This document shows positions 336-23,388 of a DNA stretch of 56,979 bases, in pieces (within the stretch, counting starts at the first letter, position 1; the number at the start of each line of letters is the position of its first letter). The DNA lies in IMG/VR virus record IMGVR_UViG_3300042260_000461, positions 1 through 56,979 of that record. The stretch is one strand, 5' to 3'. The notes under the pieces are model-generated. The model saw only the letters and a program-made list of their open reading frames with translations, had not been told where the DNA came from and did not search any database. The stretch is from a virus. Taxonomy: Duplodnaviria; Caudoviricetes. The translations under genes and the position numbers were made by a program.

Positions 336-3300
336 TCACTTCACCTTCTCGGCCAGGTCTCGCATGATCTTGGTCTTCTTCTGGACCTCGACCTGCACGG
401 CCTCCTGGAACTCATCTTGCGAGATCCGGTTGGTCTGACGCTGGCGCTTGAGTTGGGCGATGTTCTTCTCGACCTCAGCGATCTCGGCCTGAGCCTTGGC
501 GTTGAGGTTGCGGCGCAGAACGTCAGCCGGATAGCTGCCCAGCTTCACCCCGAAAGATGAGGCCACGGCCTGGGCCACTGACTGTTCGCGGCCAAAGGCA
601 TCGGTCTTGCCCTGCGCAGCCTCCGACACCCCCGTGGTGGCGTAGGTGCCCGGCAGGCCCAGCACGTTGGGCGCAAAAGCCTTGTACAGGTGATCGGCCA
701 CCTTCTCAGCCTTTTGCAGCGGCGTGTCGGTGTCCAGTGTGATCGGCTTGCCAGTGAATGCCGACTTATTGAACACCACCTCGCCAAACAGCACCAGCGG
801 ACCGCCAGGCATCATGCCGGGCAGGACCGGCACGGCAGCTTGGCCAGCACCCACGTCGAACACATCGCCCACGGGAATGAAGCGGCGGATGTCCAGATAA
901 ACCGGCGAGCCGTGCTGATCGTTCCAGGGCATGCGGATCAGCTTGGGCACCATGCCCCAGATCTTCCCGGCCTTTTCTTCGGGCAACAGCTTGCGCTCTT
1001 CATCGTCGCCATCGCCACCGGCCAGCATGCCGCCCAGGGCGTTGAGCGCACCGGCCAGCAGCATCAGCTTCATGAGCTTGTGCGGCTTCTTGCCCGCGAT
1101 CTCGGCCAGCATGGGCACAGCGCGGTAGGTGAAGCTGATGAACGGCCAGGCAGACTGGCGCATTGCCTGAATCCATGGCGCGTTGATGCTGTAGTCCAGG
1201 AATGAGCGGCGTGAGGCCTTGCCTGCATCGATGTCGGTTGCGCCCTCTTCCTTGGCCTTGAGCCAGGCAGCCAGGCGGAAAACATCGTCCTCGGCCTGGT
1301 ACAGGTCGATCAGGCTGTTGGCCTCGGTACCGATGGCCTTGCCGGGCTTGGAGCCCTTGAAGGCCTCCCAAGCGGTCGGGAAACGCAGCATCAAGGCGTT
1401 TTGCAGCGCCGACATCACGCCCACCTCGGCCTGGGCAGACTGCCCGCCCGTGGCGGCCAACTCCTGCTCCAGCTTGGCCAACAGGGGCTCCAGCTGGTCC
1501 TTGGCGATCTCGTTCGTCACCCAAGAGCCCACATCGCCGCCCGAGTCGGTGTAGCGGTTCAGGATCTCGCGGGCAGCCTCACGGTCGGCAATACCAGCCT
1601 TGGCCAACTTGTTGCCCAAACCGCCCAGCGCGCCCTGACCTTCGCGCTGGCTTGCTGCCAGGATCAGGCGCAGGGACTTGGCCACATGAGCCGCGCCCAC
1701 GTCATGCCAGTCGGCCATGACGAAGTTGGACATGACGTTGTTCATGTGCACGGCGGGCGACAGCGCGGTCTTGGCGGTTTTCCACATGCTCAGGATCTGG
1801 GCATAGGTGTCACCAAAAGGCTTGAACTGGCCATTGACCACCTGGCGCAGGTCATTCCAGACCGGGCCGGGCAGGTAGCGGCCAGCGAGCTTGCCGTACT
1901 TGGCCACGCTGGTGCCGCTGATCTTGGTGTCGGGCACACGCACCCACTCGCCAGGCTTGAAAGTGTCGCGGTAGCGCTCAGACGCTTCCACCACCTCGCC
2001 GGGGATGGTCTCGCCTTCTTTTAAGGCGTAGCCGTGCGCCATCCACTCCAGGTAGCGTCCCACCTCCACGTCATGGATCATGCCGTGCAGGGTCTTGGCA
2101 ATGGCAAAGCGGGCCTCATCGACTTCGCCCATGGTCTCGCGCTCGTCCTTGGTGAAGTCGCGCCAGAAAATGACGTTCTCGCCCTTCACATCCCGTACCT
2201 CGAACGTGCCCGCCTTGGACCATTCCGAGTATTGGCTCGGGATGGTTTCACCGGCTGGCCAGTAAGCCACCTCCAGCAACTTGCCCAAGGCCTTGCCTTC
2301 CATGCCTTCCAGCGGCTTGGTGCCCTCGCCCGATGCGGCGCGGCGCTCCAGGCGCACGAACTTCTCGCCCTTGAGTCCTGCATCGGCTTTGCCCTTGACC
2401 AGCTTGCGGCCCCACCACTCGGGTGCGGTGTTCTTGAGCTTGGCCATGGTGGCGGCCTCGGTCAGGCCACGGCCCTTGTACTGGTCGCCCAGGATGGAGA
2501 TCACCCGGGCGCGCTTGGCTTTTTCGCCTGCGGTCTGCTCCAGGATGTGCTTGGCGTAGCTGCGGCGCAGGTAGGCGTACTTGTTGGCCTCGTAAGCCTC
2601 GGGGCTCAGTTGGCCAAGTCGCACCGCCTCACGCGAGAGCTGATCGATCATCTTTTGCACGTCCTGCAATACCTTGACCGATTCCTCGGGCAGGCCTTGC
2701 ATCATGGACACGTAGGCCTTGGGGTCGGCACCGTCCATGTTCATCCACTCGTAGGCCACGCGAGACTCTTCGCGGGTCAGGGTGGAGAGCTTTTCGATCA
2801 ACTCACCGGCCTTGCGCAGTTGCACCCGCTGGCGACCTTGCAGCAGCACGCGCTGATCGATCACAGCCTGGGGCACGCCATAGTCGGCCACCACACCGGC
2901 CTTGATGGTCTCGGGGGTGTAGCGGTCCAGCAGGTAGCCCGCCCGGTCGTAGATTGCGCCGGTCAGGCGCTCGATGCCGGTGATGCGGGTCAAACCCTTG
3001 GCCAAGGCATCCAGCGGGGCGCGGCTGCCAGCCTTCTGGCTCAGGATCTCGTCTGCGCGCTCGCGGGCATCCTTGCGGCGCGAAAGCATCACGCCATCCT
3101 CTGCCGGGTTCTTCTCGCGCCACTTGGCGGCCAGGCGCTCAAACAGGGGGTAGTCCTTGGCCAGCATGTCCTCGACATCGGTAAAGCCTCGGGCGCGGGC
3201 CTCGGTTTGCAGCCACTTCTCCTGGCGCTCGATGTCATCCTTGAGCGTGGTGGACAGGCGGGTGTCGCCCATGTAACCCACCCGGCTCACCGGGCTCTTG

Positions 3301-6300
3301 CCAGCCACGTACTCGCGGGCACCGCGCACCAGTTCAGCGACGAACAGGTCGGCGCGCTGCTGCTGGGTCAAACTGCCCTCAAGCAGATCGCTCAGTTTGT
3401 TGGCCAAGTTCTTGTAGCCATGCGCCAGCAACCAATCGCGCACCATGACCGTGACCTTGCGCCAGCCCTTGAGCTTGGCCAGTTGGGCGGTCGGGATGTC
3501 CACGATGGCCTCTTCCACAGCCTCGGCGGTGGACATCTTGTTGCCGCGCTTTTGGATCTCGAAGGCCGCCCGGCGCACGTTAGCGTTGTTGGCAGACACC
3601 AGGGCCATGGCGGTCTTGAGGCTGTCACCCAGCAAGGCGCGCAGGCCAAAGTGGGCGGCCTCATGCTCAAGCAGCACGTGCTCGGCGCGGGCCATGTCAG
3701 ACAGGCCCGATGCGAACAGGTACAGCCCGCCCTCGTGAAATGCGCCTTCCACGTCATCCCAGGCATCCTGGCGAATGATGTACTCGCGCAAGCCCTTGGG
3801 AGCCTTACTGGGGTCAGACAGCACCGTCACCTTGGGCATGTTGGGCATCGTTGCCTTAACGCCGCGCACCATGGCGTCCAGGTCATCGACGCTCACACCG
3901 CCGGACGCAGCGCCAGCGCCGCGAGACAGTCGGGTGTCCTCTGCGGGCTTGACCTCTGACGCCTCAGTGGCCATCCAGTCCTCAGCAGCACCGCCATTGG
4001 TGGAAACTGCCTTGGTGATTGCCTCGTCGGCATTGGTGGCCTGAACATCAAAGCCCAGGCCAGAGGCCTTGTTTTCCACGCGCCAGGTCTTGGGCTTGGA
4101 ATCAGAGGCGATCATGTCCTCCAGGTCGTTGGCCTCTTTCACCTTGTCGGCCAGCATGCCAGCCATGGGGAAAGGCGACTCCAAGCGGCTGGTCAGTGCA
4201 TCGATCTGAGCTTTGGCCTCGGTGATGCGCTCGCGCATCTTGGCGGGCAGCCTGGCCACATCTGACACGGCGTTTTGCGCACGCATGGCCACGCCAATGG
4301 GGCTGGTACCGGCATCCGCGATCAGCAAGATCGGGTCGGGCGTGCCCAGCATCACCTTGGTCATGAACTGGCCTGCAACGGTCTCGCCGCCAAACACCAC
4401 TGGAAAACCGGAGATCTCGCCAATGGTCATGGGCTTGGTCTCGCCCCTGGCGGTCAGGTCCTTGTACTTGGCGATCAGGGCCTCGGCCCAGTCGGCGCGC
4501 TCGGCCAGGGTCTTGCCCATGACCTTGGCGCGGAACTTGTCGCCCGACAGGTCCTGCACCAGGGCGGCCATCTTCTCGGCCTCGGGCATGCGCTTTTGGT
4601 TGAACTCCACCGTTGTGCGCGCCATGTCGTACTGGGACTTGAAGCGGGCGCGCTGGTCCTCGTGGGCGCGGTAAAGGCGCTGGAGCTTTTCGATCTCGGC
4701 GCGAGCCCCTGCCAGTTGCAGGATGCGCGGATCTTCGGCCACCATGGCAGCGGCCAGGTCGTACTGGCTTTGGCTGTCCAGGTCCTCCAACTCGCGCAGG
4801 TTCGCGTCACCGCTCAAGGCCTGGTCGATGAAGAACTGTTTGGATGCGAGCATCTTCCACATGTTCTCGTCGTAGGTGCCCTTGGCGGCGTAGGCGTACA
4901 GCTGCACCAGCGGGTTCTTGTTGCCCTGGCGCACGATGCGGCCCTCACGCTGCTCCAGGTCAGCCGGGTACCAAGGCGAATCCAGGTGAAACAGGGCCTT
5001 GAGGCGCTGCTGTGCGTTCACGCCCGTGCCCATGTTCTTGCTGGAGCCCACCAGCAGGCGCACCCGGCCAGCGTTCACGTCCTTGAACAGCTTGAGCTTG
5101 TCCGCCGACTTCTTGTAGTCGGACATAAAAGCCACCTGATTCATGGGCATGCCAGCATCGCGCAGGCGTTTTTCAAACCAGGCGCGGGCATTGAAGCCGC
5201 GATTGGCGGCCACACCCTCACCAAAGCCAAGGTCAGAAAACACCATCGTGGCCGCGCCCTTGTTGGGCTCGACGTTGCCCGCCTTGTCGCGGTACTCCAT
5301 GTCCTTGGTCTCAGTCAGGACACGGATCACGTCATCGATCATGCGGTTGAGCTTGGAGTCCGGGTCGCTGGGCAGCGATGGATCGATGAAACGCATGTCG
5401 ATGGCAGCCAGGCGGCCATCGCCAATGATGCGGATCATCGGGTCCGGATTGTTCGGCTCGTCCTTGGTTGGCTTCCAGGCGCGGGACTTCTCCACACGGG
5501 CGGAGAGGTCGGACTGGTACCCGTCATAGGCCCCGGTCTTGGGCGTGACGATGATCTTGCGAGATCCGTTCTCCACTTTCGGGCGCTTGTCGCCCAGCAA
5601 AGCGGCCAGGGTGTCCGAAGTCAGCACGTCCGCGAACTCGCGGAACATCTGGGTCAACTCGGGCACGTTCACGAACTTGCTGAACCGGGTCACAGGCTCG
5701 TACTTGCCAGCGGCGTTGGGCTCCAAAACCGTGCGCTCGCGCCCGAACATCGAGGCCCATGAATCGAAGTCCTCGATGCCGCGATCTTCCAAGGCCTGGC
5801 GGTCCATGAACTTTTGCACCGTGTACAACTCGGCCAGGGTGTTGGTCACGGGCGTGCCCGATGCCAGCACCAGCGAGCGGCCTGGGTTCTTTTGCTCCAG
5901 GTAGCGGGACTTCATGTACAGGTCAAAGGCGCGGGCAGAGCCTTGCGGGCTGATGCCCTTGACCTGGCGCGAAGTCGTGAAATCGAGCTTGCGGAACTCG
6001 TGGGCCTCGTCCACGTAGAGCATGTCCACGCCAAGTTCATCGAATCGGACGTTGGTGTCCTTGCCGGTCGATGCCATGGCAGCTTCCAGCTTTTGCTCCA
6101 TGTTCTCGATCTGCTTTTCGATCTGCTTGATGCGCGGGGACTTCTTGCCGCCCTTGCCATCCTCGGCCTCGGCCTCTTCCAGGGCAGCGCGCATGTAGTC
6201 CAGCTGCTCCTCGATCATCTTGCTTTTGAACTCGGGGTCCAGATCCAGCAGCTTGAAAGCGCTGTGCGTGATGACCACGCCATCGAGGTCAGACAGCGCC

Positions 6301-9300
6301 ACACGCGAGACGAAGCGGCGGCGGTTGTCGGTGTGGAAGTTCTTTTCGTCGGCCACCATCAGGCGGGCAGCCGGGTAAAGCATCTGCCACTCGTGCGCAA
6401 ACTGCTTGAGCATGTGGTTGGGCACCACGATCATGGGCTTCTTGATGAGGCCCAGGCGCTTTTGCTCCATGGCCGAAATGACCATCTGGAAGGTCTTGCC
6501 CGAACCCACGGCATGCGCCAGGTAGGTGTTGCCGCGCTGGATGATGCGCCAGGCCCCGCGCTTGACGTGATCGAACACGCTGAACGCCTTGGACGTGCCC
6601 GGCAGCGTCAGGTGACGACCGTCAAAGGATCGCGGCACCGTGGTGTTGAAGGTGTCGTTGTAGATCCGCACCAGGCTATCGGTGCGCTCGGCATCCTTCC
6701 ACACCCAGTTGGCAAAGGCCTCGCGCAGTGCTTCGAGCTTCTGGTTGGCCGCTTCGGTACCGGCAGAGTCAAAGACCGTGGTCTTGTCTTTGCCGTAACC
6801 CTGGCTCTTGGTGATGCGGATGGGCCTGCCGGTCAAGGCATGCTCCATGATGTCCGTCACGTTGCGATCAGCCGTGCCCCAGTCGGCGGTGGCCTGCATG
6901 GTCTTGCCGCCGCTGACCTCCTGAACGGACCATTGCTTGGTGCGCTCATTCCAGGACACCTGGGCGCGCACACCGGCCAACTCGCGCAGGAATTGGCTGT
7001 ACACAGCGCCGGGCACCCAGTTCATGCCGATGCCCACATTGATCTGGCTTGGGGTCTTAGGCGCGGGCTGGGCAGCTTCGAGCGCCGCCACATTGCGCTC
7101 AAAGCGCTTGTCGGTCTTGGCAGCCGTGCGGGCTTCATCCAGTTTGCGCTTGACGTTGCCGCTCAAGTACTCGTCGGCAGTCACCCAACTGACAGCGGGG
7201 TCCTCATAGATGGCGGAGCCCAGGGCCTCGATGGTCTCGGCCTCGGTCAATCCCACGCGCTGGGCGATCAGAGGGATGTCCACATGCCCCACATCGTTGA
7301 GCGATGACAGCATTGCATCGACTGGGGTGTTGACGCTGGCAGCATCGGGCTTGCCCAGCACGCGCTCAGTTAGGAAAGCACTGGGCTTAATCTCGCCCGT
7401 GTCCTCGTTGATGGTCTCCAGAGCCGCGACCAGGGTGTAATCCGGGTCATCCTCCAGCTTGCGCAGCAGGGTGTAGACGCGCACCTGGGTTTCATCGGTG
7501 TAGGTCTCGCCCGTGTCCTCATCGACCACTTTGGACTTGACGGACTTGAGCGTGAATTGGTTGATCTGGCCGTGCTTTTTGGTGAAGTCGGCATAGGCCT
7601 TTTGCAGCGCCTTGATGCTGGTTTCCCAATCGCCCTCGTTCAACTGGTCGTAGTGCGCCTGCTTGAGGGCATCGCGCAGCGGCACAAAGTCCTTGATGAG
7701 TTGCACATCGGCTTGCGAGCGCAACTCCACGCGCTGGCCCACCCCACCCTCACGCACCATCAGCGCGCCGGAGTCGCTGACGTAGTAGTTGCCTTCTTTC
7801 TTGGCCTTGGGGTTGAAGTCGATCTCGCGGACCTTGGCCGCTTCGGCAGAAGATCCACGCTCGGCGGTGTAGATGCCCTCGGGCAGGCGGTTGATCGCCT
7901 TGTCGAACAGGGCCTCGATGTCGCCATCGAGCGGCGCGACCGTGTACTCGCGGTCCTTGTACATGGAGCCCGCATCGGAATGCGTGCCCAGCACCATGTC
8001 CGGGTTGGCCACAAAGTACTCGTTGATGTTGTAGTCGTTGCCGTTGACCTTGAGCGGCACCGACTTGCCCCAGGACTGAGCGCCCTCGAAGGTCTCACCT
8101 GGCACTTTTTTGCGCAGGAAGATCACATCTGTGACCACCTCGGTACCGGCGTTTTGCTTGAAGGCGGTTTGAGGCAGGCGAATTGCGCCCACCAGGTCCG
8201 CACGGTCAGCCAGGTACTGGCGCGCCTTGTCATCGAGCTTGTCCATGGTGTAGCGGCTGGTGACGTACACCACCAGACCGCCCGGCTTGGTGCGATCAAT
8301 CGACTTGGCAAAGAAGTAGTCATGCAGGCTGAATGCCCGCTTTGCGTACTCTGGATCGCTCAGGATCTTGGTGCCAGAGAACGGCGGATTGCCGACCGAC
8401 ACGTCATAGAAGTTCTTGGGCAGCTTGGAGTCCACGAAGGACTCGACCAGGATGCGCTCGTCGGGGAACAGCTGCTTGAGGATGCGGCCCGTGAAGGAGT
8501 CGAACTCGATGCCGGTGTAGATCGAGTTTGCGGCCATGGCGGCGGGCATGAGGCCTGGGAACACGCCGATGCCAGCGCCTGGCTCCAGAATGGCCCCGCC
8601 CTTGAAGCCCATGCGGTCCAGTGCGCGCCACATCGAGCGCACCACTTCCTTGCTGGTGTAGTGGGCGTACTGGGTCGAGCGCGAGGCCTCGGCCCATTCC
8701 TTCTCGGACATGGACGCCTTGAGGCGGTTGCGCAACTCCACCCACTTGCGCACGCTGGGCTCGGGCTTGGCCTTATCCAGCATCTCGCGGGTGATGTTGC
8801 CCGCCGTGTACCAGGTCAACTGCGGGTTGCGGTATTGCAGGACCCGGAAGGCAGGCGCGTACTCGCCGTAGCGGGCGTTGGTCAGGAACGGGCGATCACC
8901 CAGGGCGGCGATGGCCTCGTCGTAGTTGCTCAGCGCCTCGGCGGCCTTGTCCAGCTTGTCGCCAAACAGGTTGTTGGCGATCTCGGAAGCGCCCCAGCCA
9001 ATGAACTTGGCCAGCTTCGCCTGCTCTTCGCGGGTGGCCTGGCGGCCATCCTTCTCCAGCGACAGCAGCAGTTCAATGGCTTCGAGGTTCTGCTCGGCCT
9101 TCTTGAACCAACTGCCCTCATAGCTCAGGTCGGAGGCTGAGAAGGCGTAGTTTCGTCCGGACTTTGCGGGGATGTCGCGTCCTGCGGGAACTCCAGCATT
9201 TCGGCCAGCACGATCTCGCGGTTGAGGCTGCTTGCTGTTCGCATCCTGGCCGCGCACTCCATCGGCCCCAGCTTGTCCCACCCCTCCTTGATCCGCTGCG

Positions 9301-12300
9301 TTTGCGTCAGCGTCACCACCTGCGAAGAGATCTGATCCGCCAGGTCTTGGGCGTACTCGTTGAGTTGGCCGCTTGCCGCCAGGCTGCGATACAGCGCGGG
9401 TGCCTTCTCCTTGATCGCGTCCTTGACCAGCGTTATCGTTTGCATCTTGATCTCCAGTTTTCTCGCCAGTATATCCATTTCCGGATATTTGTGGTACAGT
9501 TGTGTCGAGAGGTGTTGAAATGAATGTTCCAGACAGATTCCCACCAGGCTGCGAGTTCGGCATGGACTTGACCGACGACGATGGCGTGGAGTTGGTGTAT
9601 GTCGAATTCCCCGATGGCAAGCGCTTTGTGCTCAACGAAAAGTCGCCTTGGGATGGCATGTCGCCAACCACCTGGTGGCCCTTGCGTTGGTCGAGATTGA
9701 CTGAGGCTGGTTTCTTGGAAGCAGCAGGCAAGCCAGCAGAAGTGGTCGCAGCAGCACGTGCAGCCGCTGCGGAGGCGGCCAGCGGATAAATTTCACGCTG
9801 CGCCGCAATGGCGTTAGCTTGCGTTTCAGAGCCTTCGGGCTCTGCTCTCTCGATCTCATAGAGCTTATGCCCCTCGGCGTTCTTGACCGCCAGCATTTCG
9901 GGCACATTGATTTGGATCTCGGCAGTCGTGCCATTGGCGGTGCGAACATTGACCAGCACCTGGCCATAGCCAGAGTCCAAGAACCCAGCCTTGCCACTGA
10001 CTTCTGTCGCCTTGATCCCGGCGTCTGACTGATCCTTGATGCGCTTGGGCAGGATCTCAAACTCTTTTCTGATTGCATCGACCACGGCCTGAGCATCGGC
10101 GTAGCTGCTCACCACAATGGTCGAGCGCAGCATGTCGTACATCTTGCCGGGGTCGAAGTTAACGCCCTCATCCGTCACCAGCTTTTCAACAGAGCGAGCA
10201 AGCCCCTTTACTGGTGCAAGCATCTGGCCAAGTGCGCCGGTGCTCTTGGCGATGTCGATGATCTTCTGGTCGTACTCGGCCTTGGCTTCATTGGCGCGCT
10301 CAATGAGCGGCTTGAGCAGCTTCTCGGCCTTCTCACGATCCTGCGCGCTGATCTCGACAGGTGCGGCTGATTTGAGCAGGCGGCCAATTTGGTCGCGTGC
10401 GTTCGCCAGGACATCAGCGGGGATGAAGGTGTCGGTTTCAGGCGGGGCGAAGTTGTCCAGCTTCATGTCGTACGGGCGGCCATCGATCATGGCGGCCTTG
10501 GGCTTGTCTGCCAGGTCGGCCAGCGCATCCCCGAACAGATCTTGCTGACCCATACGGGCCTCGGCAGCTGCGAACAAATCATCGACACGCTGGGCCGACT
10601 CGCGGGCCATGGCCTGCTCGGCAGCCTTGCGGTACAAGTCGGTGGCAATCTTGTTCCAGAAGGTCTTGAGCTTCGGATCGTTCTTGAGCGCCTGCTTCAC
10701 GTAGGCCACCAGATCCTTGAGGCTGTAACCCACTTCCTTGATACCGGCCTCCATCAGGCGGATCAACGTGGGCATGAGGTCCGGTGTCTTTTCCGGGACC
10801 ATCATCAAGCGCGTGTGCTTGGTGGCGATCATGGCCAGGTCAGCCATGGCGTCCTTGAAGTCTTGACGGGCTTGGGCACGCGCCTGGTCGGTTGCAGCGC
10901 CATCGGAGCGCTTGACGCTCGGAAACTGGAACGTGGCGGCCATCAAGTCACGGATGGGCGCGTCAAACTCGATCACCTTGACCGGCTCATTCATAGCCAG
11001 GGCAGCCACCCACTGGTGATGACCGTCCAGCACATAGCCATCGGCGGATGCCAGCACAGAGCGGTCTACGCCATCGCGCACTTGTTTCCAGCGCTCGGCC
11101 TTCTTGCTCGAAAACTCGGCCTGGGTCGGCTTGAGGTCAGCGGCTGGGCGCTCGACCGTCTTGTGCTCGATGCCCTTGCCTTGCAGGAATTGGATCAGCG
11201 CGCCGCGATGCTCGCTTTTGACCTGGGGCATTTCGGCACGGGGAATGCCGATGGTGCCGGTGTCGGGCGGGAACATCACCCATTCGCTTTGCTCTCCTGC
11301 TTGGGTTGCGGCAGTGGCGCGGGCAGCCCCATCGCCTTGATCGCCGCCGCGATTGCTCGGCGCATCTTGGGATTGCTGTCCACCTGGCGCATCAGCTTGC
11401 GCACCTTCTCCAGGGTCTCGCCGCTGGGTGTCTTGGGCAGTGTTGCCATTGTCATTTCCTCGTGCAGATTTCAGAAGGTCGGCGCGTGCCGGTGCGGTGT
11501 CGGTGTCGCCAAAGATCAAGCCTTGGCTGGGGTCTCCAGCAGCTTCCAGGGCCTCGTAGTAGCGCTGCACGAACTCGGCAATGCGGCGCGGGCTGCGGAT
11601 GTTGTCGGCCAACAGGGTCAAAAGCTGGGAAGCCTCGGGCGAGTACTTCGCGCCCGTGAGGTCGCCTTGGCCAAGTTCGTCGGCCACGCTCCAGCCCTTT
11701 TCCTTGAGGGCGGACAGGCCTTCAACGGCGGCCAGAAGATCCGGCGCAATGTCGGCCTCGTACAAGGTACCGGCCTGCATGCGCTCACGTGATGCTGCAA
11801 TGGTCGGGGCCACACGCACCAGTGCCTTGGTGACGTTGCGCAGGTTGTCATCCATGCTCTCGGTCATGCGGCGCAGCGTGGGCGAGTCACCGTAGGCCTT
11901 GGCCAGCACGGCGTTTTGGATGCGCCGGTAGCCGAACGTGGACAGGCGGCCATCGGACTCCACCATGTCCGACTGCTCAGTGATCGGCAGCATGGCCATG
12001 AACTGGCGGATGAAGTCGTAGGACGTGGTGAAGTCACCGGCATCGTCAGGGCTCAAGCCTTCCAGGGATGCCAGGCGCTTGGAGTCAGACACGGCCTGCT
12101 CGCTGGGGCTCATGCGCTGCACGGTCGAGGCGTTGGCCTGGCGTGCGAACTCGGCGCGGTTCACCGGGGTCTGGCGCAGGCGCACTAGCACCGGCTTGGC
12201 CAAGCCATCCACAGCCTCGGGCGTGAGGCCGAATTGACCGGCGTTCTCGCGCAGCCAGGCCTTGTAGTCCTCGGCCTTCTGACCATTGGCCTGATACACG

Positions 12301-13904
12301 CGCTTGAGGGCGATGGTGCGGGCGTTGCCCGACTCCACCAGGCCATCAGCGCCAACAATCGGCGCGCCCGTGGCGGCGTCAGCCGACAAGCCCAAGCGGG
12401 CCGGGTCGAGCTTTTGCACGATGCTGGAGACCTGCAACTCGCTGGCCGAACGGCTGCGGTCGCGGGGCTGCAATTCCTGGGGGTACAGGCTGTTGGGGCG
12501 CAGGCTCTCGTCGTGCGATGTCACCAGGTCGGCGGCATCCATCAGGGCGTACTGGCCATTGAGCCTGACGCCTGCCTCGGTCGAAAAGCTGGTGGATGCG
12601 CCCGGCTGGGCCTTTGGCCAAGACTGGGCGATGCTGGCGCGCTCGCTGGCCAACTCCTGGGCCTTGGTCGCCAGTTCGGCGCGCTCCTGGTCAAAGGCGG
12701 GGCCGTAGCCGTTCTCGGCGGTCAATTCCTGTGTGCGCTCGGCAATGCGTGAGATCTCGGTATCGATCTCGCCCACACGGTCCAGGGCAGTGAGCGATAC
12801 CGGCGTGCGCAGGGCTTTCTCGGCCTCGGTAGGCTGCGTCACAGCCATATTGGGCGCAGTGGCCGATTGCGGTGTGACAGGTGCTTGGCTCTGTGCTGGC
12901 GCTGGCTGGGGGGCGTTTCCGGATTCAGGTGTGATGGGCTTTTGTTCCCCAGCCTGGCCGATGGCGTTGCGGGCAGCCGAATACGTGTTCATGCCGCCGC
13001 CCATACCGGCACCGGCCACCATGCCCTGGGCGGCAGCCTCTGGCACGCCCTCGTCCCATGGCTTGCCCAATGCCAGGTTGGTGAAAACCTGCTCCTGGGC
13101 AGACTGCGGCAGTTCCTCCAGCACACCCTCTTTGAATGTGCCCTTGGCGATCTCTTTGCCAGCCTGCACAAGGCTCTGGCGCTGTGCGCCGCCCATGCCT
13201 GCAACGGCTGCGCCGACTTCAGCATCACGGAAGCCGGGAATCTTGGATGTGACCAGGCTGATGGCAGCCGTGCCCAAGCCGCCAGCAACGGCGGCAGGAG
13301 CGGTGTCGGTGTAGTCTCGGCCAGCTTGGCGGCCTGCCTCCTGAATACTGCCTGCGGTCATCGCGCCTTCGGTGGCTGCGCCGATGCCGGTCAACTTGGC
13401 AATGGTTGCAGGCTTGGCCAAGAAGGCGGCAGCCTCAGCGGTACCGGCCTTGATACCGGCAGAGGCCAGCATCTTCGAGGCGGCGGCGCGCACTGCGGCG
13501 GCACCGCCCAACATCATCGGCGTGGATTCAACGATGGAGCCAACGGCAGCGCTGGGGTTTTGCACCAGGGCCTTGGTCGTGTCCACGAAGCCTTTGGCCT
13601 GCGAAACCTCACGATTGGCCTGCTGGCGCGGGTCGCTGTAAAAGTCGCTCAGGATCTGCTTGGTTTGCTCAGGGTCGTAGCCCATAGCCCCCAAGCCCTT
13701 GCCCACCAGGTTGCCGGTGGCCAGATCTGCCAGGCCTACGGCAGACTCACCAAACCCAACAACGCCCTTGGCCAGGTCGATGCCTGAGTCGGCAATAGCC
13801 TCGCCCCAAGTGCGATCGCGCTGATCTGGTTTTTTCTTCGACTGCTCTTGGTCCGGAACAAACCGACCACTAGACTCAGAATTTTCGTCCGGTACAAATG
13901 CCAT
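336..13904 (-). CDS. Giant DarB-like polyvalent (probably virion-injected) protein: DdrB/ParB-like, second ParB-like, RelA/SpoT-like synthetase, N6-adenine methyltransferase, SNF2 helicase, zincin metallopeptidase and C-terminal LPD-like domains
   Basis: 4522 aa. Motifs: VESGNARTIAL; LKPTQ..DGHHQW; K..RSVEK/DMLRSTI/GY/EIQI/HKLYE; ILEPGAGIG and NPPF; AHAVGSGKT, DEAH, QREGRIVRQG; HEAAH. Last gene of the late arm, after the ejection genes. Confidence 0.9.
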   Translation of the reverse strand: MAFVPDENSESSGRFVPDQEQSKKKPDQRDRTWGEAIADSGIDLAKGVVGFGESAVGLADLATGNLVGKGLGAMGYDPEQTKQILSDFYSDPRQQANREVSQAKGFVDTTKALVQNPSAAVGSIVESTPMMLGGAAAVRAAASKMLASAGIKAGTAEAAAFLAKPATIAKLTGIGAATEGAMTAGSIQEAGRQAGRDYTDTAPAAVAGGLGTAAISLVTSKIPGFRDAEVGAAVAGMGGAQRQSLVQAGKEIAKGTFKEGVLEELPQSAQEQVFTNLALGKPWDEGVPEAAAQGMVAGAGMGGGMNTYSAARNAIGQAGEQKPITPESGNAPQPAPAQSQAPVTPQSATAPNMAVTQPTEAEKALRTPVSLTALDRVGEIDTEISRIAERTQELTAENGYGPAFDQERAELATKAQELASERASIAQSWPKAQPGASTSFSTEAGVRLNGQYALMDAADLVTSHDESLRPNSLYPQELQPRDRSRSASELQVSSIVQKLDPARLGLSADAATGAPIVGADGLVESGNARTIALKRVYQANGQKAEDYKAWLRENAGQFGLTPEAVDGLAKPVLVRLRQTPVNRAEFARQANASTVQRMSPSEQAVSDSKRLASLEGLSPDDAGDFTTSYDFIRQFMAMLPITEQSDMVESDGRLSTFGYRRIQNAVLAKAYGDSPTLRRMTESMDDNLRNVTKALVRVAPTIAASRERMQAGTLYEADIAPDLLAAVEGLSALKEKGWSVADELGQGDLTGAKYSPEASQLLTLLADNIRSPRRIAEFVQRYYEALEAAGDPSQGLIFGDTDTAPARADLLKSARGNDNGNTAQDTQRRDPGEGAQADAPGGQQSQDAPSNRGGDQGDGAARATAATQAGEQSEWVMFPPDTGTIGIPRAEMPQVKSEHRGALIQFLQGKGIEHKTVERPAADLKPTQAEFSSKKAERWKQVRDGVDRSVLASADGYVLDGHHQWVAALAMNEPVKVIEFDAPIRDLMAATFQFPSVKRSDGAATDQARAQARQDFKDAMADLAMIATKHTRLMMVPEKTPDLMPTLIRLMEAGIKEVGYSLKDLVAYVKQALKNDPKLKTFWNKIATDLYRKAAEQAMARESAQRVDDLFAAAEARMGQQDLFGDALADLADKPKAAMIDGRPYDMKLDNFAPPETDTFIPADVLANARDQIGRLLKSAAPVEISAQDREKAEKLLKPLIERANEAKAEYDQKIIDIAKSTGALGQMLAPVKGLARSVEKLVTDEGVNFDPGKMYDMLRSTIVVSSYADAQAVVDAIRKEFEILPKRIKDQSDAGIKATEVSGKAGFLDSGYGQVLVNVRTANGTTAEIQINVPEMLAVKNAEGHKLYEIERAEPEGSETQANAIAAQREIYPLAASAAAARAAATTSAGLPAASKKPASVNLDQRKGHQVVGDMPSQGDFSLSTKRLPSGNSTYTNSTPSSSVKSMPNSQPGGNLSGTFISTPLDTTVPQISGNGYTGEKTGDQDANDNAGQGRDQGEGTRAVSQPGGKRPTQRVRPRPGGSDLFAGGDADANAADQGGVGQAGADGVRGQDANSKQPQPRDRAGRNAGVPAGRDIPAKSGRNYAFSASDLSYEGSWFKKAEQNLEAIELLLSLEKDGRQATREEQAKLAKFIGWGASEIANNLFGDKLDKAAEALSNYDEAIAALGDRPFLTNARYGEYAPAFRVLQYRNPQLTWYTAGNITREMLDKAKPEPSVRKWVELRNRLKASMSEKEWAEASRSTQYAHYTSKEVVRSMWRALDRMGFKGGAILEPGAGIGVFPGLMPAAMAANSIYTGIEFDSFTGRILKQLFPDERILVESFVDSKLPKNFYDVSVGNPPFSGTKILSDPEYAKRAFSLHDYFFAKSIDRTKPGGLVVYVTSRYTMDKLDDKARQYLADRADLVGAIRLPQTAFKQNAGTEVVTDVIFLRKKVPGETFEGAQSWGKSVPLKVNGNDYNINEYFVANPDMVLGTHSDAGSMYKDREYTVAPLDGDIEALFDKAINRLPEGIYTAERGSSAEAAKVREIDFNPKAKKEGNYYVSDSGALMVREGGVGQRVELRSQADVQLIKDFVPLRDALKQAHYDQLNEGDWETSIKALQKAYADFTKKHGQINQFTLKSVKSKVVDEDTGETYTDETQVRVYTLLRKLEDDPDYTLVAALETINEDTGEIKPSAFLTERVLGKPDAASVNTPVDAMLSSLNDVGHVDIPLIAQRVGLTEAETIEALGSAIYEDPAVSWVTADEYLSGNVKRKLDEARTAAKTDKRFERNVAALEAAQPAPKTPSQINVGIGMNWVPGAVYSQFLRELAGVRAQVSWNERTKQWSVQEVSGGKTMQATADWGTADRNVTDIMEHALTGRPIRITKSQGYGKDKTTVFDSAGTEAANQKLEALREAFANWVWKDAERTDSLVRIYNDTFNTTVPRSFDGRHLTLPGTSKAFSVFDHVKRGAWRIIQRGNTYLAHAVGSGKTFQMVISAMEQKRLGLIKKPMIVVPNHMLKQFAHEWQMLYPAARLMVADEKNFHTDNRRRFVSRVALSDLDGVVITHSAFKLLDLDPEFKSKMIEEQLDYMRAALEEAEAEDGKGGKKSPRIKQIEKQIENMEQKLEAAMASTGKDTNVRFDELGVDMLYVDEAHEFRKLDFTTSRQVKGISPQGSARAFDLYMKSRYLEQKNPGRSLVLASGTPVTNTLAELYTVQKFMDRQALEDRGIEDFDSWASMFGRERTVLEPNAAGKYEPVTRFSKFVNVPELTQMFREFADVLTSDTLAALLGDKRPKVENGSRKIIVTPKTGAYDGYQSDLSARVEKSRAWKPTKDEPNNPDPMIRIIGDGRLAAIDMRFIDPSLPSDPDSKLNRMIDDVIRVLTETKDMEYRDKAGNVEPNKGAATMVFSDLGFGEGVAANRGFNARAWFEKRLRDAGMPMNQVAFMSDYKKSADKLKLFKDVNAGRVRLLVGSSKNMGTGVNAQQRLKALFHLDSPWYPADLEQREGRIVRQGNKNPLVQLYAYAAKGTYDENMWKMLASKQFFIDQALSGDANLRELEDLDSQSQYDLAAAMVAEDPRILQLAGARAEIEKLQRLYRAHEDQRARFKSQYDMARTTVEFNQKRMPEAEKMAALVQDLSGDKFRAKVMGKTLAERADWAEALIAKYKDLTARGETKPMTIGEISGFPVVFGGETVAGQFMTKVMLGTPDPILLIADAGTSPIGVAMRAQNAVSDVARLPAKMRERITEAKAQIDALTSRLESPFPMAGMLADKVKEANDLEDMIASDSKPKTWRVENKASGLGFDVQATNADEAITKAVSTNGGAAEDWMATEASEVKPAEDTRLSRGAGAASGGVSVDDLDAMVRGVKATMPNMPKVTVLSDPSKAPKGLREYIIRQDAWDDVEGAFHEGGLYLFASGLSDMARAEHVLLEHEAAHFGLRALLGDSLKTAMALVSANNANVRRAAFEIQKRGNKMSTAEAVEEAIVDIPTAQLAKLKGWRKVTVMVRDWLLAHGYKNLANKLSDLLEGSLTQQQRADLFVAELVRGAREYVAGKSPVSRVGYMGDTRLSTTLKDDIERQEKWLQTEARARGFTDVEDMLAKDYPLFERLAAKWREKNPAEDGVMLSRRKDARERADEILSQKAGSRAPLDALAKGLTRITGIERLTGAIYDRAGYLLDRYTPETIKAGVVADYGVPQAVIDQRVLLQGRQRVQLRKAGELIEKLSTLTREESRVAYEWMNMDGADPKAYVSMMQGLPEESVKVLQDVQKMIDQLSREAVRLGQLSPEAYEANKYAYLRRSYAKHILEQTAGEKAKRARVISILGDQYKGRGLTEAATMAKLKNTAPEWWGRKLVKGKADAGLKGEKFVRLERRAASGEGTKPLEGMEGKALGKLLEVAYWPAGETIPSQYSEWSKAGTFEVRDVKGENVIFWRDFTKDERETMGEVDEARFAIAKTLHGMIHDVEVGRYLEWMAHGYALKEGETIPGEVVEASERYRDTFKPGEWVRVPDTKISGTSVAKYGKLAGRYLPGPVWNDLRQVVNGQFKPFGDTYAQILSMWKTAKTALSPAVHMNNVMSNFVMADWHDVGAAHVAKSLRLILAASQREGQGALGGLGNKLAKAGIADREAAREILNRYTDSGGDVGSWVTNEIAKDQLEPLLAKLEQELAATGGQSAQAEVGVMSALQNALMLRFPTAWEAFKGSKPGKAIGTEANSLIDLYQAEDDVFRLAAWLKAKEEGATDIDAGKASRRSFLDYSINAPWIQAMRQSAWPFISFTYRAVPMLAEIAGKKPHKLMKLMLLAGALNALGGMLAGGDGDDEERKLLPEEKAGKIWGMVPKLIRMPWNDQHGSPVYLDIRRFIPVGDVFDVGAGQAAVPVLPGMMPGGPLVLFGEVVFNKSAFTGKPITLDTDTPLQKAEKVADHLYKAFAPNVLGLPGTYATTGVSEAAQGKTDAFGREQSVAQAVASSFGVKLGSYPADVLRRNLNAKAQAEIAEVEKNIAQLKRQRQTNRISQDEFQEAVQVEVQKKTKIMRDLAEKVK
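9125..9445 (-). CDS. Nested +1-frame gene, TnpV-like helical protein (106 aa)
   Basis: GGAGA RBS 5 nt before ATG. KEKAPALYRSLAASGQLNEY..KEG..MECAARM..REIVLAEML resembles the TnpV family. The host frame here is low-complexity linker. Confidence 0.7.
   Translation of the reverse strand: MQTITLVKDAIKEKAPALYRSLAASGQLNEYAQDLADQISSQVVTLTQTQRIKEGWDKLGPMECAARMRTASSLNREIVLAEMLEFPQDATSPQSPDETTPSQPPT
9471..9488. promoter_or_regulatory. 18-bp operator inside the giant gene, within a divergent promoter
   Basis: ATATCC-ATTTCC-GGATAT, a perfect match to the motif at the cI/cro and early promoters. It overlaps a minus-strand -10 TATACT (9468-9473); a plus-strand extended -10 TGgTACAGT lies at 9492-9500. 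Confidence 0.75.
9520..9789 (+). CDS. Nested antisense gene (89 aa), candidate antitoxin of the embedded RelA/SpoT-like domain
   Basis: GAGAGG RBS and its own extended -10. Globular-looking aromatic/acidic sequence (MNVPDRFPPGCEFGMDLTDDDGVELVYVEFPDGKRFV...). Ends tail-to-tail with the synthetase domain. Confidence 0.65.
   Translation: MNVPDRFPPGCEFGMDLTDDDGVELVYVEFPDGKRFVLNEKSPWDGMSPTTWWPLRWSRLTEAGFLEAAGKPAEVVAAARAAAAEAASG
11276..11449 (-). CDS. Nested +1-frame gene (57 aa), basic helical protein
   Basis: GAGGA RBS 8 nt before ATG. MATLPKTPSGETLEKVRKLMRQVDSNPKMRRAIAAAIKAMGLPAPLPQPKQESKANG*. Below the ORF-track cutoff; the host frame is low-complexity. Confidence 0.6.
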   Translation of the reverse strand: MATLPKTPSGETLEKVRKLMRQVDSNPKMRRAIAAAIKAMGLPAPLPQPKQESKANG

Positions 13905-17957: not shown

Positions 17958-18320
17958 TCAGGCTGCTGGGGCCTCAGTGGCCCTGATGACCTTGAGCCGC
18001 TGGGCAGAAACATTGTGCAGAACCTCGTAAGGGTTCCTGCCTTGCGCATTGAACGCAGCGACTTCTCCATCAACGTCAACCTTCACGCTGTAAGTGTTGA
18101 TGCCATCATCGCCTTGGCCGATTTGCTGCACGTCCAGCACGCGCACACGATTGACATAGATTTCGTTCATGGCATTCATAATCGTTGCAGACTCAACGGC
18201 AACCATCTTTTTGACGCCTTCAAACTCAATTTCGACATTAAATGTTTTCATGGATTCAACTCCGTGCATTGACTGATAAATTGCGTGAGCCGTGTCAAGT
18301 TCGTACTGTTCCAGCATCAC
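17958..18320 (-). CDS. Hypothetical protein
   Basis: 120 aa, start overlaps the upstream stop, lower-GC segment. Confidence 0.6.
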   Translation of the reverse strand: MMLEQYELDTAHAIYQSMHGVESMKTFNVEIEFEGVKKMVAVESATIMNAMNEIYVNRVRVLDVQQIGQGDDGINTYSVKVDVDGEVAAFNAQGRNPYEVLHNVSAQRLKVIRATEAPAA

Positions 18321-22979: not shown

Positions 22980-23360
22980 TCAGACTTGGGCAGCGGGTTC
23001 GGTGGCTTCCTCGGCCACGGGTGGCGGTGCCCAAGGCAGCGGCGTGGACACCAGCGAGGCCTTGGCGATCTCGCGGTCCAGCACCATCTGGATGTGCTGC
23101 TTGATCGACAGCAAGCGACCATCGGGCTCGTTGGTCTCGATCCACTCCACCACCTGCACAGGCGTGACGCTGGCCAAAGGTGTGAAAGCCTCGGGCGCTG
23201 GGTCGGCCAGGGTCGTGGTGCCGGGCAGCTCAAAGGTCTGGCCGGTGTCTTCACCGATCAAAGTCCAGTCCACCTCTTTGATGGCTTGAGGCAAACCGCC
23301 AATGGTGCGAGTGCGGATGTCGCGGACAACAAAGCTGAAAGTGGCGCGAAGGTCGTTCAT
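22980..23360 (-). CDS. Fibre-associated / tail assembly-type protein
   Basis: 126 aa, AAGGAG RBS, C-terminal PLPW motif. Confidence 0.6.
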   Translation of the reverse strand: MNDLRATFSFVVRDIRTRTIGGLPQAIKEVDWTLIGEDTGQTFELPGTTTLADPAPEAFTPLASVTPVQVVEWIETNEPDGRLLSIKQHIQMVLDREIAKASLVSTPLPWAPPPVAEEATEPAAQV

Positions 23361-23388
23361 GGGTTACTCCTTTATGGTGTTTGTGGTT

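What the first reader, a model, noticed from the sequence alone, without database searches (positions are those of the whole stretch)
9125..11449. A giant phage gene hides a regulated set of nested genes in its linkers
Seen: three small ORFs with good RBSs lie wholly inside the 4522-aa ORF, at 11276-11449 (-, +1 frame), 9125-9445 (-, the same +1 frame) and 9520-9789 (+). In each case the main frame decays to low-complexity G/Q/D/R/S/P linker (aa ~815-875 and ~1370-1590) while the nested frame reads as a normal folded protein. Each lies at the border of an enzymatic module (ParB-like, RelA/SpoT-like, methylase-helicase). Inference: polyvalent proteins may grow by reading through whole gene cassettes, keeping partner genes (inhibitors or chaperones) and their promoters alive inside the fused ORF. 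Gene callers would miss all three.
Basis: partly seen in the sequence, partly recalled or inferred. Interest (0 to 1): 0.92.

Follow-up and report, generated by a model that had tools for sequence, protein, structure and literature searches.

The report
Real small genes nested inside a giant phage gene
Three small genes hidden inside the flexible linkers of a 4522-residue phage effector gene are conserved and look real, and one is predicted to be the inhibitor of the toxin module beside it, so a single stretch of DNA serves as both linker and partner gene.

Summary
All three ORFs exist at the stated coordinates inside the 4522-aa ORF (336-13904, minus strand) of a temperate phage.

ORF presence alone means nothing here. 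At about 62% GC the same gene holds chance antisense ORFs of up to 641 aa.

Comparative data show the three are genes.
- **ORF 9125-9445 (+1 frame).** It passes the Pfam TnpV threshold. It is nested in the same frame in 16 of 16 related giant genes, down to 38% identity. It carries the codon-position signature of selection in its own frame.
- **ORF 11276-11449 (+1 frame, "nestA").** It shows the same signature and has a Shine-Dalgarno motif in 6 of 6 relatives.
- **Antisense ORF 9520-9789 ("nestC").** It has a conserved ATG and Shine-Dalgarno motif in 12 of 12. It folds at pLDDT 90.8. It is predicted to sit on the active site of the adjacent module (ipSAE 0.78, best control 0.00).

That adjacent module matches Tas1, a (p)ppApp-synthetase toxin, and module and nestC are exchanged together between phages.

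The giant frame across the TnpV-like gene is no better conserved than the non-coding frame, yet it is kept free of stops.

Own promoters, timing of expression and the roles of TnpV-like and nestA remain inferred. I rate it a new variant of known kinds (embedded genes; toxin-immunity pairs).

The parts
336..13904 (-). Giant ORF, 4522 aa: polyvalent effector protein lying next to internal-virion and ejection protein genes
   Evidence: Pfam finds ddrB-ParB, Eco57I methylase, SNF2 and Helicase_C. Neighbouring genes hit PHROGs internal virion protein, DNA ejection protein, portal, terminase and integrase.
12174..12572 (-). ddrB-ParB domain of the giant protein (aa 445-577)
   Evidence: Pfam PF18763, E 4.3e-35, 120.9 bits.
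11276..11449 (-). nestA: nested gene of 57 aa in the +1 frame, in the linker after the ddrB-ParB module
   Evidence: In 6 sequences the nested-frame identity is 0.524, against 0.332 for the giant frame. Codon-position diversity is 0.41/0.262/0.458. AGGAG-type Shine-Dalgarno motif in 6 of 6. Weaker +1-frame HMM hits at the same border in 4 more loci. 19 called homologues of 55-97 aa.
10575..11267 (-). Module X of the giant protein (aa 880-1110). It looks ParB-nuclease-like by eye only.
   Evidence: A conserved block that changes place among relatives. No Pfam hit below E 0.006.
9789..10496 (-). Tas1-like RelA/SpoT-type nucleotidyltransferase (toxin-type) module (aa 1137-1372)
   Evidence: A profile of 9 modules hits Tas1 (6ox6_A) at E 4e-10. 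Pfam RelA_SpoT stays below threshold (best 22.8 bits against 27), matched by 7 of 9 members at E up to 0.1.
9520..9789 (+). nestC: antisense nested gene of 89 aa, predicted inhibitor (immunity-like) of the Tas1-like module
   Evidence: Conserved ATG and GGAGG-type Shine-Dalgarno motif in 12 of 12. AlphaFold2 pLDDT 90.8, pTM 0.82. Complex ipSAE 0.78 against 0.00 for the best control. Exchanged together with the module. 10 called homologues.
9446..9519 (.). 74-nt divergent control-like region between the two start codons. It holds TATACT (9468-9473, minus strand) and TGgTACAGT (9492-9500, plus strand), plus both Shine-Dalgarno motifs. The giant ORF reads through it.
   Evidence: Alignment of 12 loci: TATA[CG]T in 12 of 12, TGTA[CG]CA in 11 of 12. 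These are built from codons that are rare in the giant genes. The consensus promoter scan found nothing.
9125..9445 (-). TnpV-like nested gene of 106 aa in the +1 frame, just before the methylase-helicase part
   Evidence: Pfam TnpV 31.1 bits, threshold 27. Nested in 16 of 16. Codon-position and frame-identity tests. Four-helix model at pLDDT 80.2. 282 relatives, nearly all small proteins.
4923..9124 (-). Methylase-helicase (DarB-like) part of the giant protein
   Evidence: Pfam Eco57I 1828-1902, SNF2 2457-2649, Helicase_C 2930-2994. It is the most conserved part of the gene. The DarB comparison is recalled, not tested.

Best explanation
**What it is.** The 4522-aa ORF encodes one long polyvalent effector protein of a temperate phage. 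Its position beside internal-virion and ejection protein genes suggests it is packaged and injected; that is inferred. The low-complexity linkers between its enzymatic modules are dual-coding. Each linker is also a small independent gene, translated from its own Shine-Dalgarno motif and ATG.

**The three nested genes.** Two lie in the +1 frame (nestA and a TnpV-family four-helix protein). One lies on the opposite strand (nestC).

**How selection acts (shown).** For the two +1 genes, selection acts on the amino-acid sequence of the nested frame. The giant frame there is selected mainly to stay free of stops.

**What nestC does (inferred from a model, from adjacency and from joint exchange).** nestC is the cognate inhibitor, an immunity protein, of the Tas1-like (p)ppApp-synthetase-type toxin module that ends where nestC lies. 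It is predicted to cover that module's conserved catalytic face.

**How the arrangement arose (inferred).** The module and nestC form a toxin-immunity cassette that was captured in frame. An internal module has no room for a downstream immunity gene, so that gene persists inside the linker.

**Expression (not shown).** nestC and the TnpV-like gene start 74-83 nt apart, back to back. Between them lie conserved -10-like hexamers. I take this to mean that they are transcribed on their own, independently of the late operon. That would allow expression early after injection, or in lysogens, to switch off or resist the injected toxin.

**Open.** The roles of nestA and the TnpV-like protein are unknown. 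My guess is a partner or inhibitor of the ddrB-ParB module for nestA, and a regulator or adaptor for the TnpV-like protein.
For: **TnpV-like gene**
- Pfam PF14198 at 31.1 bits, above the threshold of 27.
- The window and 15 of 15 fetched viral loci carry it in the +1 frame of a giant ORF open for more than 2300 codons.
- A stop codon directly precedes its ATG in L006 and L014, so it starts on its own.
- In 13 non-redundant sequences, nucleotide diversity at nested codon positions 1/2/3 is 0.370/0.337/0.441. The giant frame's third position is therefore the least variable. The bootstrap 95% interval of the difference is 0.049-0.161.
- Amino-acid identity is 0.48 in the nested frame, 0.37 in the giant frame and 0.37 in the third frame. 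Stops number 0, 0 and 61.
- Of 85 bins of 40 codons along the giant alignment, the only 2 where the giant third position is not the most variable are the TnpV-like gene.
- With the TnpV-like protein held fixed, synonymous recoding leaves the giant frame open with P 0.002-0.096 per sequence, yet it is open in 13 of 13.
- 282 relatives at E up to 1e-3. Of the 150 listed, 146 are at most 200 aa and none is a giant in-frame fusion.

**nestA**
- Identity 0.524 (nested), 0.332 (giant), 0.419 (third frame).
- Codon-position diversity 0.41/0.262/0.458; bootstrap interval 0.119-0.283.
- Shine-Dalgarno motif in 6 of 6.

**nestC**
- ATG and Shine-Dalgarno motif conserved in 12 of 12.
- pLDDT 90.8, pTM 0.82.
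- Complex with the module: ipSAE 0.80/0.78/0.72, best of 3 controls 0.00. Partner pLDDT 86-90. Runs agree in at least 85% of contacts. The mark was reached by 58 of 80 solved complexes and 2 of 110 mismatched pairs.
- Interface residues include invariant columns of the module alignment.
- nestC matches no solved chain by sequence (best E 0.37) or by fold (best E 0.63). A pass from memory of Tas1-Tis1 is therefore unlikely.

**Toxin module and cassette behaviour**
- The module profile hits Tas1 at E 4e-10.
- Between the window and L005 the TnpV-like protein is 99% identical. The module is 61% (first half) and 44% (second half) identical, and nestC 39%. L005's module and nestC are closest to L017's.
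- nestC is absent in the 2 loci where a Zeta_toxin domain replaces the module.

**Control region**
- TATA[CG]T in 12 of 12 and GTA in 11 of 12. These codons make up only 0.32 (TAT of Tyr), 0.11 (ACT of Thr), 0.04 (AGT of Ser) and 0.07 (GTA of Val) of their families in the giant genes.

**Published analogue**
- Prophage Apk2 (p)ppApp-synthetase toxins are followed by the immunity gene iapK, whose product occludes the acceptor site (PMC12226406, passages read).
Against: - No direct evidence of translation or of independent transcription.
- The sigma-70 consensus scan of 9000-11700 found 0 promoters. The -10-like hexamer for nestC would leave a leader of only about 13 nt.
- For nestC the codon-position test cannot discriminate, because its third positions coincide with the giant frame's. 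Identity is 0.462 in the nestC frame and 0.431 in the giant frame. Openness is unremarkable in both directions.
- The pairwise-identity correlation of nestC with the module's C-half is weak (Spearman 0.28; -0.11 with the N-half).
- L011 keeps nestC without the module.
- The Pfam RelA_SpoT match is below threshold. Enzymatic activity and toxicity are unknown.
- The metatranscriptome evidence is thin. Three low-depth contigs lie on the nested genes, carried-over DNA cannot be excluded, and the one RNA run of the host species laid 0 reads.
- The complex score is a model's confidence, reached with my own shallow alignments (9 and 21 rows).
Confidence: 0.62

Rival explanations
1. The nested ORFs are by-products. 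Open alternate frames are common in GC-rich DNA, and their apparent conservation is only the shadow of selection on the giant frame.
For: - Chance antisense ORFs of up to 641 aa lie in the same gene.
- Alternate-frame tblastn hits occur throughout the gene.
- Given the giant protein, the nested frames stay open with P 0.1-1.0.
- For nestC, identity in the two frames is nearly equal, 0.462 against 0.431.
Against: - For the TnpV-like gene and nestA the giant frame's third position is the least variable. The giant-frame identity is equal to, or lower than, that of the non-coding third frame. This is the reverse of what a shadow would give.
- Only these bins break the periodicity, 2 of 85.
- The TnpV-like ORF scores above the Pfam threshold.
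- Start codons and Shine-Dalgarno motifs are conserved.
- nestC folds at pLDDT 90.8 and docks with controls at 0.00.
Confidence: 0.07
2. The nested frames are read as part of the giant protein by programmed frameshifting. This would give shorter isoforms ending in a TnpV-like or nestA-like tail, with no independent genes.
For: Both lie on the same strand in +1. In the window the alternate frame is open for 62 codons upstream of the ATG at 9445.
Against: - A stop codon directly precedes the ATG in L006 and L014. L020 has a stop one codon upstream.
- The ATG and Shine-Dalgarno motif are conserved.
- Family members are free small proteins: 146 of the 150 listed are at most 200 aa.
- The idea cannot apply to the antisense nestC.
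Confidence: 0.03
3. The genes are real, but nestC is not an immunity protein. The back-to-back pair nestC and TnpV-like is a moron-like or regulatory cassette, for example a lysogenic-conversion or exclusion function or a regulator pair. It merely uses the linker as a safe insertion site.
For: - L011 has nestC without the toxin module.
- The TnpV-like gene is present whatever module precedes it, including Zeta toxin.
- Co-variation of nestC with the module is weak.
- The arrangement is divergent and promoter-like.
Against: - The predicted interface covers invariant catalytic-face residues, with controls at 0.00.
- nestC is present in all 10 distinct loci that have the module and covers no locus with Zeta toxin.
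- Module and nestC are swapped as a unit.
- Prophage Apk2 toxins with adjacent immunity genes are a published precedent.
Confidence: 0.2
4. The long ORF is not one protein. It is several genes, and their continuity across the small genes is accidental.
For: The giant-frame sequence across the nested genes is low-complexity and barely conserved.
Against: - The giant frame is open in 16 of 16.
- Given the TnpV-like protein this has P 0.002-0.096 per sequence. The summed log10 is -23.6 if the sequences are treated as independent, which overstates it.
- The third frame has 61 stops in the same columns.
Confidence: 0.03

Closest known systems
Lambda Rz/Rz1 embedded spanin genes (PMC5295617, seen in a search listing only; details recalled)
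   Same: A small gene lies wholly inside a larger phage gene in the +1 frame, has its own start, and both products are made.
   Different: Here three genes are embedded in one ORF and one of them is antisense. They sit specifically in disordered linkers between enzymatic modules. At least one is predicted to inhibit the host protein's neighbouring domain, not to co-operate with it.
Tas1-Tis1 (type VI effector) and prophage MuF-Apk2 with IapK/Aph1: (p)ppApp-synthetase toxins with adjacent immunity genes (PDB 6ox6; PMC12226406, passages read)
   Same: A RelA/SpoT-type toxin domain is carried by a delivery protein, in Apk2 a phage head protein. A small cognate inhibitor is encoded right next to it, and IapK occludes the substrate site.
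   Different: The toxin is an internal module of a 4522-aa protein. The candidate immunity gene is not downstream: it lies on the opposite strand inside the same ORF. nestC resembles no solved chain by sequence or by fold.
Polyvalent proteins of phages and conjugative elements (Iyer et al. 2017, PMC5512222; term search of the text)
   Same: Many effector domains in one polypeptide (ddrB-ParB, RelA/SpoT, methylase, helicase), encoded near phage head and packaging genes.
   Different: The paper's text holds 0 occurrences of 'tnpv' and 0 of 'overlap'. Its 2 occurrences of 'nested' refer to a hairpin structure. Genes embedded in the linkers are not described there. Its supplementary files could not be seen.
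TnpV of Tn4451-type transposons (Pfam PF14198)
   Same: HMM match above threshold, about 100 aa, helical.
   Different: The match is modest (31.1 bits). This subfamily is nested in a phage giant gene in every context I could fetch. The function of TnpV itself is unknown (recalled).
Overprinted genes of small viruses, such as phiX174 (review PMC8227390, abstract seen in a listing)
   Same: Two frames encode protein from the same DNA, and one product is disordered or low-complexity.
   Different: In overprinting the new frame is usually the young, disordered one inside an old gene. Here the folded small genes belong to a wider family of small proteins, while the disordered reading is the linker of the large gene. 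This suggests read-through capture of pre-existing genes.

Membership tests
Pfam TnpV (PF14198) | HMM score at or above the gathering threshold (27 bits) | tested here: met
   31.1 bits, E 2.5e-7, residues 8-83 on profile positions 31-110 of 111. Five distant homologues carry a precomputed PF14198 assignment.
Pfam TnpV (PF14198) | Encoded on a Tn4451-like transposon beside a TnpX-type recombinase (recalled) | not tested
   The context here is a phage structural operon. The window's integrase was not typed.
Tas1/Apk-type (p)ppApp synthetase toxins (RelA/SpoT homologues) | Significant sequence match to a characterised member | tested here: met
   A profile of 9 modules hits Tas1 (6ox6_A) at E 4e-10, profile positions 69-206.
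Tas1/Apk-type (p)ppApp synthetase toxins (RelA/SpoT homologues) | Pfam RelA_SpoT at or above the gathering threshold | tested here: not met
   Best 22.8 bits against 27. Seven of 9 members match at E up to 0.1.
Tas1/Apk-type (p)ppApp synthetase toxins (RelA/SpoT homologues) | Pyrophosphokinase activity on ATP/ADP and toxicity | not testable with these tools
   Needs expression and a nucleotide assay.
Toxin-immunity pair | Immunity gene immediately adjacent to the toxin-coding region and inherited with it | tested here: met
   nestC begins to overlap where the module ends (9789). It is present in all 10 distinct loci with the module and absent in the 2 with Zeta toxin. It is swapped together with the module between the window and L005. 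There is one orphan, L011.
Toxin-immunity pair | Direct binding of the immunity protein to the toxin domain | tested here: inconclusive
   Model only: ipSAE 0.78, best control 0.00, partner pLDDT 86-90, at least 85% contact agreement. No measurement.
Toxin-immunity pair | Homology to a known immunity protein (Tis1, IapK) | tested here: not met
   No PDB sequence hit below E 0.37. No Foldseek hit below E 0.63.
Embedded (out-of-frame nested) phage genes of the Rz1 type | Whole ORF inside another gene in a different frame, with its own start signals, conserved as such | tested here: met
   16 of 16 for the TnpV-like gene. Shine-Dalgarno motif and ATG conserved for all three.
Embedded (out-of-frame nested) phage genes of the Rz1 type | Both products demonstrably made | not testable with these tools
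   Only low-depth metatranscriptome contigs lie over the nested genes.
Polyvalent proteins (Iyer et al. 2017) | Several unrelated effector domains in one polypeptide of a phage, near head or packaging genes | tested here: met
   ddrB-ParB, Tas1-like, Eco57I methylase, SNF2 and Helicase_C lie in one ORF beside internal-virion and ejection genes.

The most novel reading that the evidence does not exclude
Polyvalent effector genes of phages are built by in-frame capture of whole toxin-plus-immunity (or enzyme-plus-partner) cassettes. The partner genes survive as dual-coded linkers with their own expression signals. A single giant late gene would then also be a string of independently expressed small genes, which time or neutralise the injected modules. 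This would be a general rule for giant mobile-element genes and a large hidden reservoir of unannotated inhibitors.
Probability: 0.4. Interest if true: 0.9.

Novelty: new variant of a known kind. Interest (0 to 1): 0.8.

Why it matters
If confirmed, this changes three things.

- **Linkers can be genes.** The "junk" linkers of giant multi-domain phage and plasmid proteins could be coding in another frame or on the other strand. Annotation pipelines that forbid nested calls would then systematically lose a class of small inhibitors and partners.
- **A solution for internal toxin modules.** It gives a concrete answer to how an internal toxin module of a single polypeptide can keep a cognate immunity gene.
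- **A record of how such proteins grow.** It offers a readable record of how polyvalent proteins grow and exchange modules.

It is also directly testable. A 97%-identical copy of this stretch sits in the genome of a cultured organism. The nestC-module pair can be assayed in E. coli.

Tried and rejected
**Searches that found nothing**
- Near-identity DNA searches of 8800-11800 in plasmids and phages: no match.
- tblastn of the TnpV-like protein in plasmids and phages: no match.
- Distant family members P0125 and P0107 in viral contigs, and P0125 in plasmids, to look for free-standing relatives with context: nothing. Whether distant relatives are nested or free-standing therefore stays open. That canonical TnpV is a free gene is recalled, not shown here.

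**Tests that could not discriminate**
- Alternate-frame tblastn over the whole gene. Hits occur everywhere because of main-frame conservation.
- ORF openness of the nested frames. It is not significant: summed log10 -3.55 for the TnpV-like gene, -0.46 for nestA and -3.44 for nestC.
- Giant-frame openness across nestC. It follows automatically, P about 1.

**Structure and look-alike searches**
- Foldseek against PDB for both models: no match.
- ESM Atlas for nestA and nestC: no usable hit.
- Pfam for nestA and nestC: only a sub-threshold HEAT_2 match for nestA.

**Other**
- Pairwise-identity correlation of nestC with module halves: weak.
- Sigma-70 scan: 0 sites.
- A nested antitoxin near the Zeta-toxin module of L006 and L014. 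Two bins lose periodicity, but there is no protein-like alternate ORF, and with two sequences the power is low.
- RNA run X24 of the host species laid 0 reads, so it is no test.
- Supplements of the polyvalent-protein paper could not be seen and may list architectures relevant here.

Full report
**Setting.**
- The window is a virus record. It carries portal, terminase, internal-virion and DNA-ejection proteins, a tail fibre, a RecE-like exonuclease and an integrase. It is therefore a temperate phage.
- The 4522-aa ORF (336..13904, minus strand) lies at the end of the virion and ejection gene block.
- Pfam finds ddrB-ParB (aa 445-577), an Eco57I-type methylase, SNF2 and Helicase_C, plus a sub-threshold RelA_SpoT match at aa 1235-1349.
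- This is the architecture of the "polyvalent proteins" of Iyer et al. 2017 (PMC5512222).

**The observation.**
- The three ORFs exist as described.
- Their mere existence is worthless as evidence. GC is 0.58-0.66. The same gene contains antisense ORFs of 641, 527, 497, 495 and 467 aa.
- Alternate-frame translations of the well-conserved modules also give strong tblastn hits in relatives, simply as shadows of the main frame.
- I therefore looked for signals that a shadow cannot give.

**Relatives.**
- The protein of 9125-9445 found 4 and then 15 viral loci from 15 different contigs, at 38-99% identity.
- One contig of a Betaproteobacteria genome bin also carries it.
- In the window and in all 15 loci the homologous ORF lies in the +1 frame of a giant ORF open for 2323 to more than 4500 codons. 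The same holds on the low-coverage bin contig, over 380 codons.
- For statistics I used 13 non-redundant sequences. I dropped L005 (99% identical to the window here), L018 (same as L017) and L019 (same as L008).

**TnpV-like gene (9125-9445).**
- It scores 31.1 bits on Pfam TnpV, threshold 27.
- Codon-position diversity in its own frame is 0.370/0.337/0.441. The site that is the giant frame's wobble position is the least variable, and the giant frame's first position is the most variable (bootstrap interval 0.049-0.161).
- Identity is 0.48 in the nested frame. It is 0.37 in both the giant frame and the non-coding third frame.
- The giant frame nevertheless has 0 stops where the third frame has 61.
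- Along the whole giant alignment (85 bins of 40 codons with data), the giant third position is the most variable everywhere except in the two bins that are this gene.
- When the nested protein is kept and its codons are redrawn from the phage's own usage, the giant frame stays open with P 0.002-0.096 per sequence. It is open in 13 of 13. So the nested frame is selected for sequence and the giant frame for openness.
- A stop codon directly precedes the ATG in L006 and L014, which excludes a frameshift fusion.
- All 13 have a purine-rich Shine-Dalgarno-like motif before the ATG. It is weak in L006 and L014.
- The family has 282 representatives at E up to 1e-3. Of the 150 listed, 146 are at most 200 aa.
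- The model is a four-helix protein with a disordered tail (pLDDT 80.2). It has no PDB fold match.

**nestA (11276-11449).**
- Six sequences give identity 0.524 (nested), 0.332 (giant) and 0.419 (third frame).
- Codon-position diversity is 0.41/0.262/0.458 (interval 0.119-0.283).
- An AGGAG-type motif lies 5-8 nt before the ATG in 6 of 6.
- A profile of the six finds weaker +1-frame matches at the same place, the end of the ddrB-ParB module, in L010, L014, L015 and L016. In three of these (L010, L015, L016) a different module follows.
- nestA therefore goes with the upstream module.
- Nineteen homologues of 55-97 aa are on record.

**nestC (9520-9789, antisense).**
- Its third codon positions coincide with the giant frame's. 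The periodicity test is therefore blind, identities are similar (0.462 against 0.431), and openness is unremarkable.
- The case rests on other evidence:
  - The ATG and a GGAGG-type motif are conserved in 12 of 12 loci that have it.
  - An AlphaFold2 model reaches pLDDT 90.8 and pTM 0.82 from only 21 sequences: five strands and two helices.
  - There is no sequence or fold relative in the PDB.
  - The complex prediction, described next.

**The neighbouring module and the complex.**
- A profile of nine copies of the module that ends at 9789 hits Tas1, the type VI (p)ppApp-synthetase toxin, at E 4e-10.
- Modelled with nestC it gave ipSAE 0.80, 0.78 and 0.72. The best of three controls was 0.00. 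Partner pLDDT was 86-90, and at least 85% of contacts were shared between runs.
- The mark was reached by 58 of 80 solved complexes and 2 of 110 mismatched pairs. These counts hold only roughly, because my own alignments were used.
- The interface lists module residues 92-108, 124, 177, 195 and 205-218. These include invariant columns of the module alignment.
- This supports binding. It does not show it.

**Cassette behaviour.**
- The slot before the TnpV-like gene holds the Tas1-like module plus nestC in 10 distinct loci and the window.
- It holds nestC alone in L011.
- It holds a Zeta_toxin domain (E 2e-36 and 1e-40) without nestC in L006 and L014.
- The module that follows the cassette also varies.
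- The window and L005 are 89-95% identical in DNA on both sides and 99% identical in the TnpV-like protein. They are only 61% and 44% identical in the two halves of the module and 39% in nestC.
- L005's module and nestC are closest to those of L017 (0.68/0.64/0.64), whose TnpV-like protein is only 38% identical to L005's.
- The toxin module and nestC thus move together, with a breakpoint between the two divergent small genes.
- The overall rank correlation of nestC with the module is weak, 0.28 with the C-half.

**Expression signals.**
- The two start codons are 74-83 nt apart, back to back.
- Besides both Shine-Dalgarno motifs, TATA[CG]T is present in 12 of 12 and TGTA[CG]CA in 11 of 12.
- In the giant frame these are Tyr-TAT, Thr-ACT or Ser-AGT, and Val-GTA. 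Those codons make up 0.32, 0.11, 0.04 and 0.07 of their families in these genes. The constraint is therefore on nucleotides, not on the linker's residues.
- I read them as -10 elements, one of them with a TG extension. However, the consensus scan finds no full promoter, and the nestC leader would be very short.
- In one freshwater metatranscriptome, the only contigs of 150 nt or more that lie on 8600-11900 cover 9323-9474, 9487-9734 and 11151-11314. These are the two divergent genes and the 3' end of nestA. They have depths of 2-5.
- DNA carry-over cannot be excluded. By my rough estimate the coincidence has a chance of about 0.07.

**Prior knowledge.**
- Embedded +1 genes are known (Rz1 in Rz).
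- (p)ppApp-synthetase toxins with adjacent immunity genes are known, including on prophages (Apk2 with iapK and aph1).
- Searches for polyvalent proteins with overlapping genes, TnpV with phage, Tas1 or ppApp with phage immunity, embedded or nested genes, and antitoxins in alternative frames returned nothing that describes partner genes embedded in the linkers of a polyvalent protein gene. I judged this from listings and abstracts only.
- That is the extent of my claim that it is not in print.

**Verdict.**
- Shown: three conserved nested genes, with dual coding in which the giant frame is kept open.
- Supported by models and comparative genomics: nestC as the cognate inhibitor of a Tas1-like module, and cassette exchange.
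- Inferred only: own promoters, timing of expression, the functions of nestA and the TnpV-like protein, and origin by read-through capture.

Noticed in passing
L006:4740-5963 and L014:4701-6014: In two relatives the toxin slot of the giant protein holds a Zeta_toxin domain (Pfam E 2e-36 and 1e-40) in place of the Tas1-like module, with no nestC. Two 40-codon bins upstream lose third-position periodicity, but no protein-like alternate ORF was seen. Where the antitoxin of this module is encoded remains open.
   Followed up: partly
L011:5711-5923: This relative keeps nestC and the TnpV-like gene but lacks the Tas1-like module, so nestC is an orphan immunity-like gene here.
   Followed up: partly
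window 2034-3959, 4275-5762, 5814-7307, 7557-9140, 10389-11792 (+): Very long antisense ORFs (467-641 aa) lie inside the giant gene, and their translations look like garbage. From memory, the antisense frame that lines up codon for codon with the sense frame often stays open in GC-rich genes. I saw no sign that these are genes, but did not test them one by one.
   Followed up: partly
window 18001-19000 and 23001-25000: GC drops to 0.49 and 0.50-0.53, against about 0.62 elsewhere. ORF 23559-25163 (-), 534 aa, has no PHROG hit. ORF 18317-19006 (-), 229 aa, lies in the first dip. These may be acquired, moron-like genes.
   Followed up: no
window 8600-11900: A contig from isolate sequencing runs of a cultured organism (coded organism A) holds the whole stretch with 85 differences and 3 gaps. 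A close relative of this phage is therefore a prophage in a culturable host.
   Followed up: partly
window 8600-9314: In a wastewater library labelled RNA-Seq cDNA (probably DNA), a 1243-nt contig of depth about 1530 matches the start of the methylase part and the 3' end of the TnpV-like gene at 90-95% identity, then stops. A related element is very abundant there.
   Followed up: no
window 336-3580 (giant aa about 3440-4522): The fetched loci did not cover the last 1080 residues or so of the giant protein. That part has not been scanned for further nested genes.
   Followed up: no
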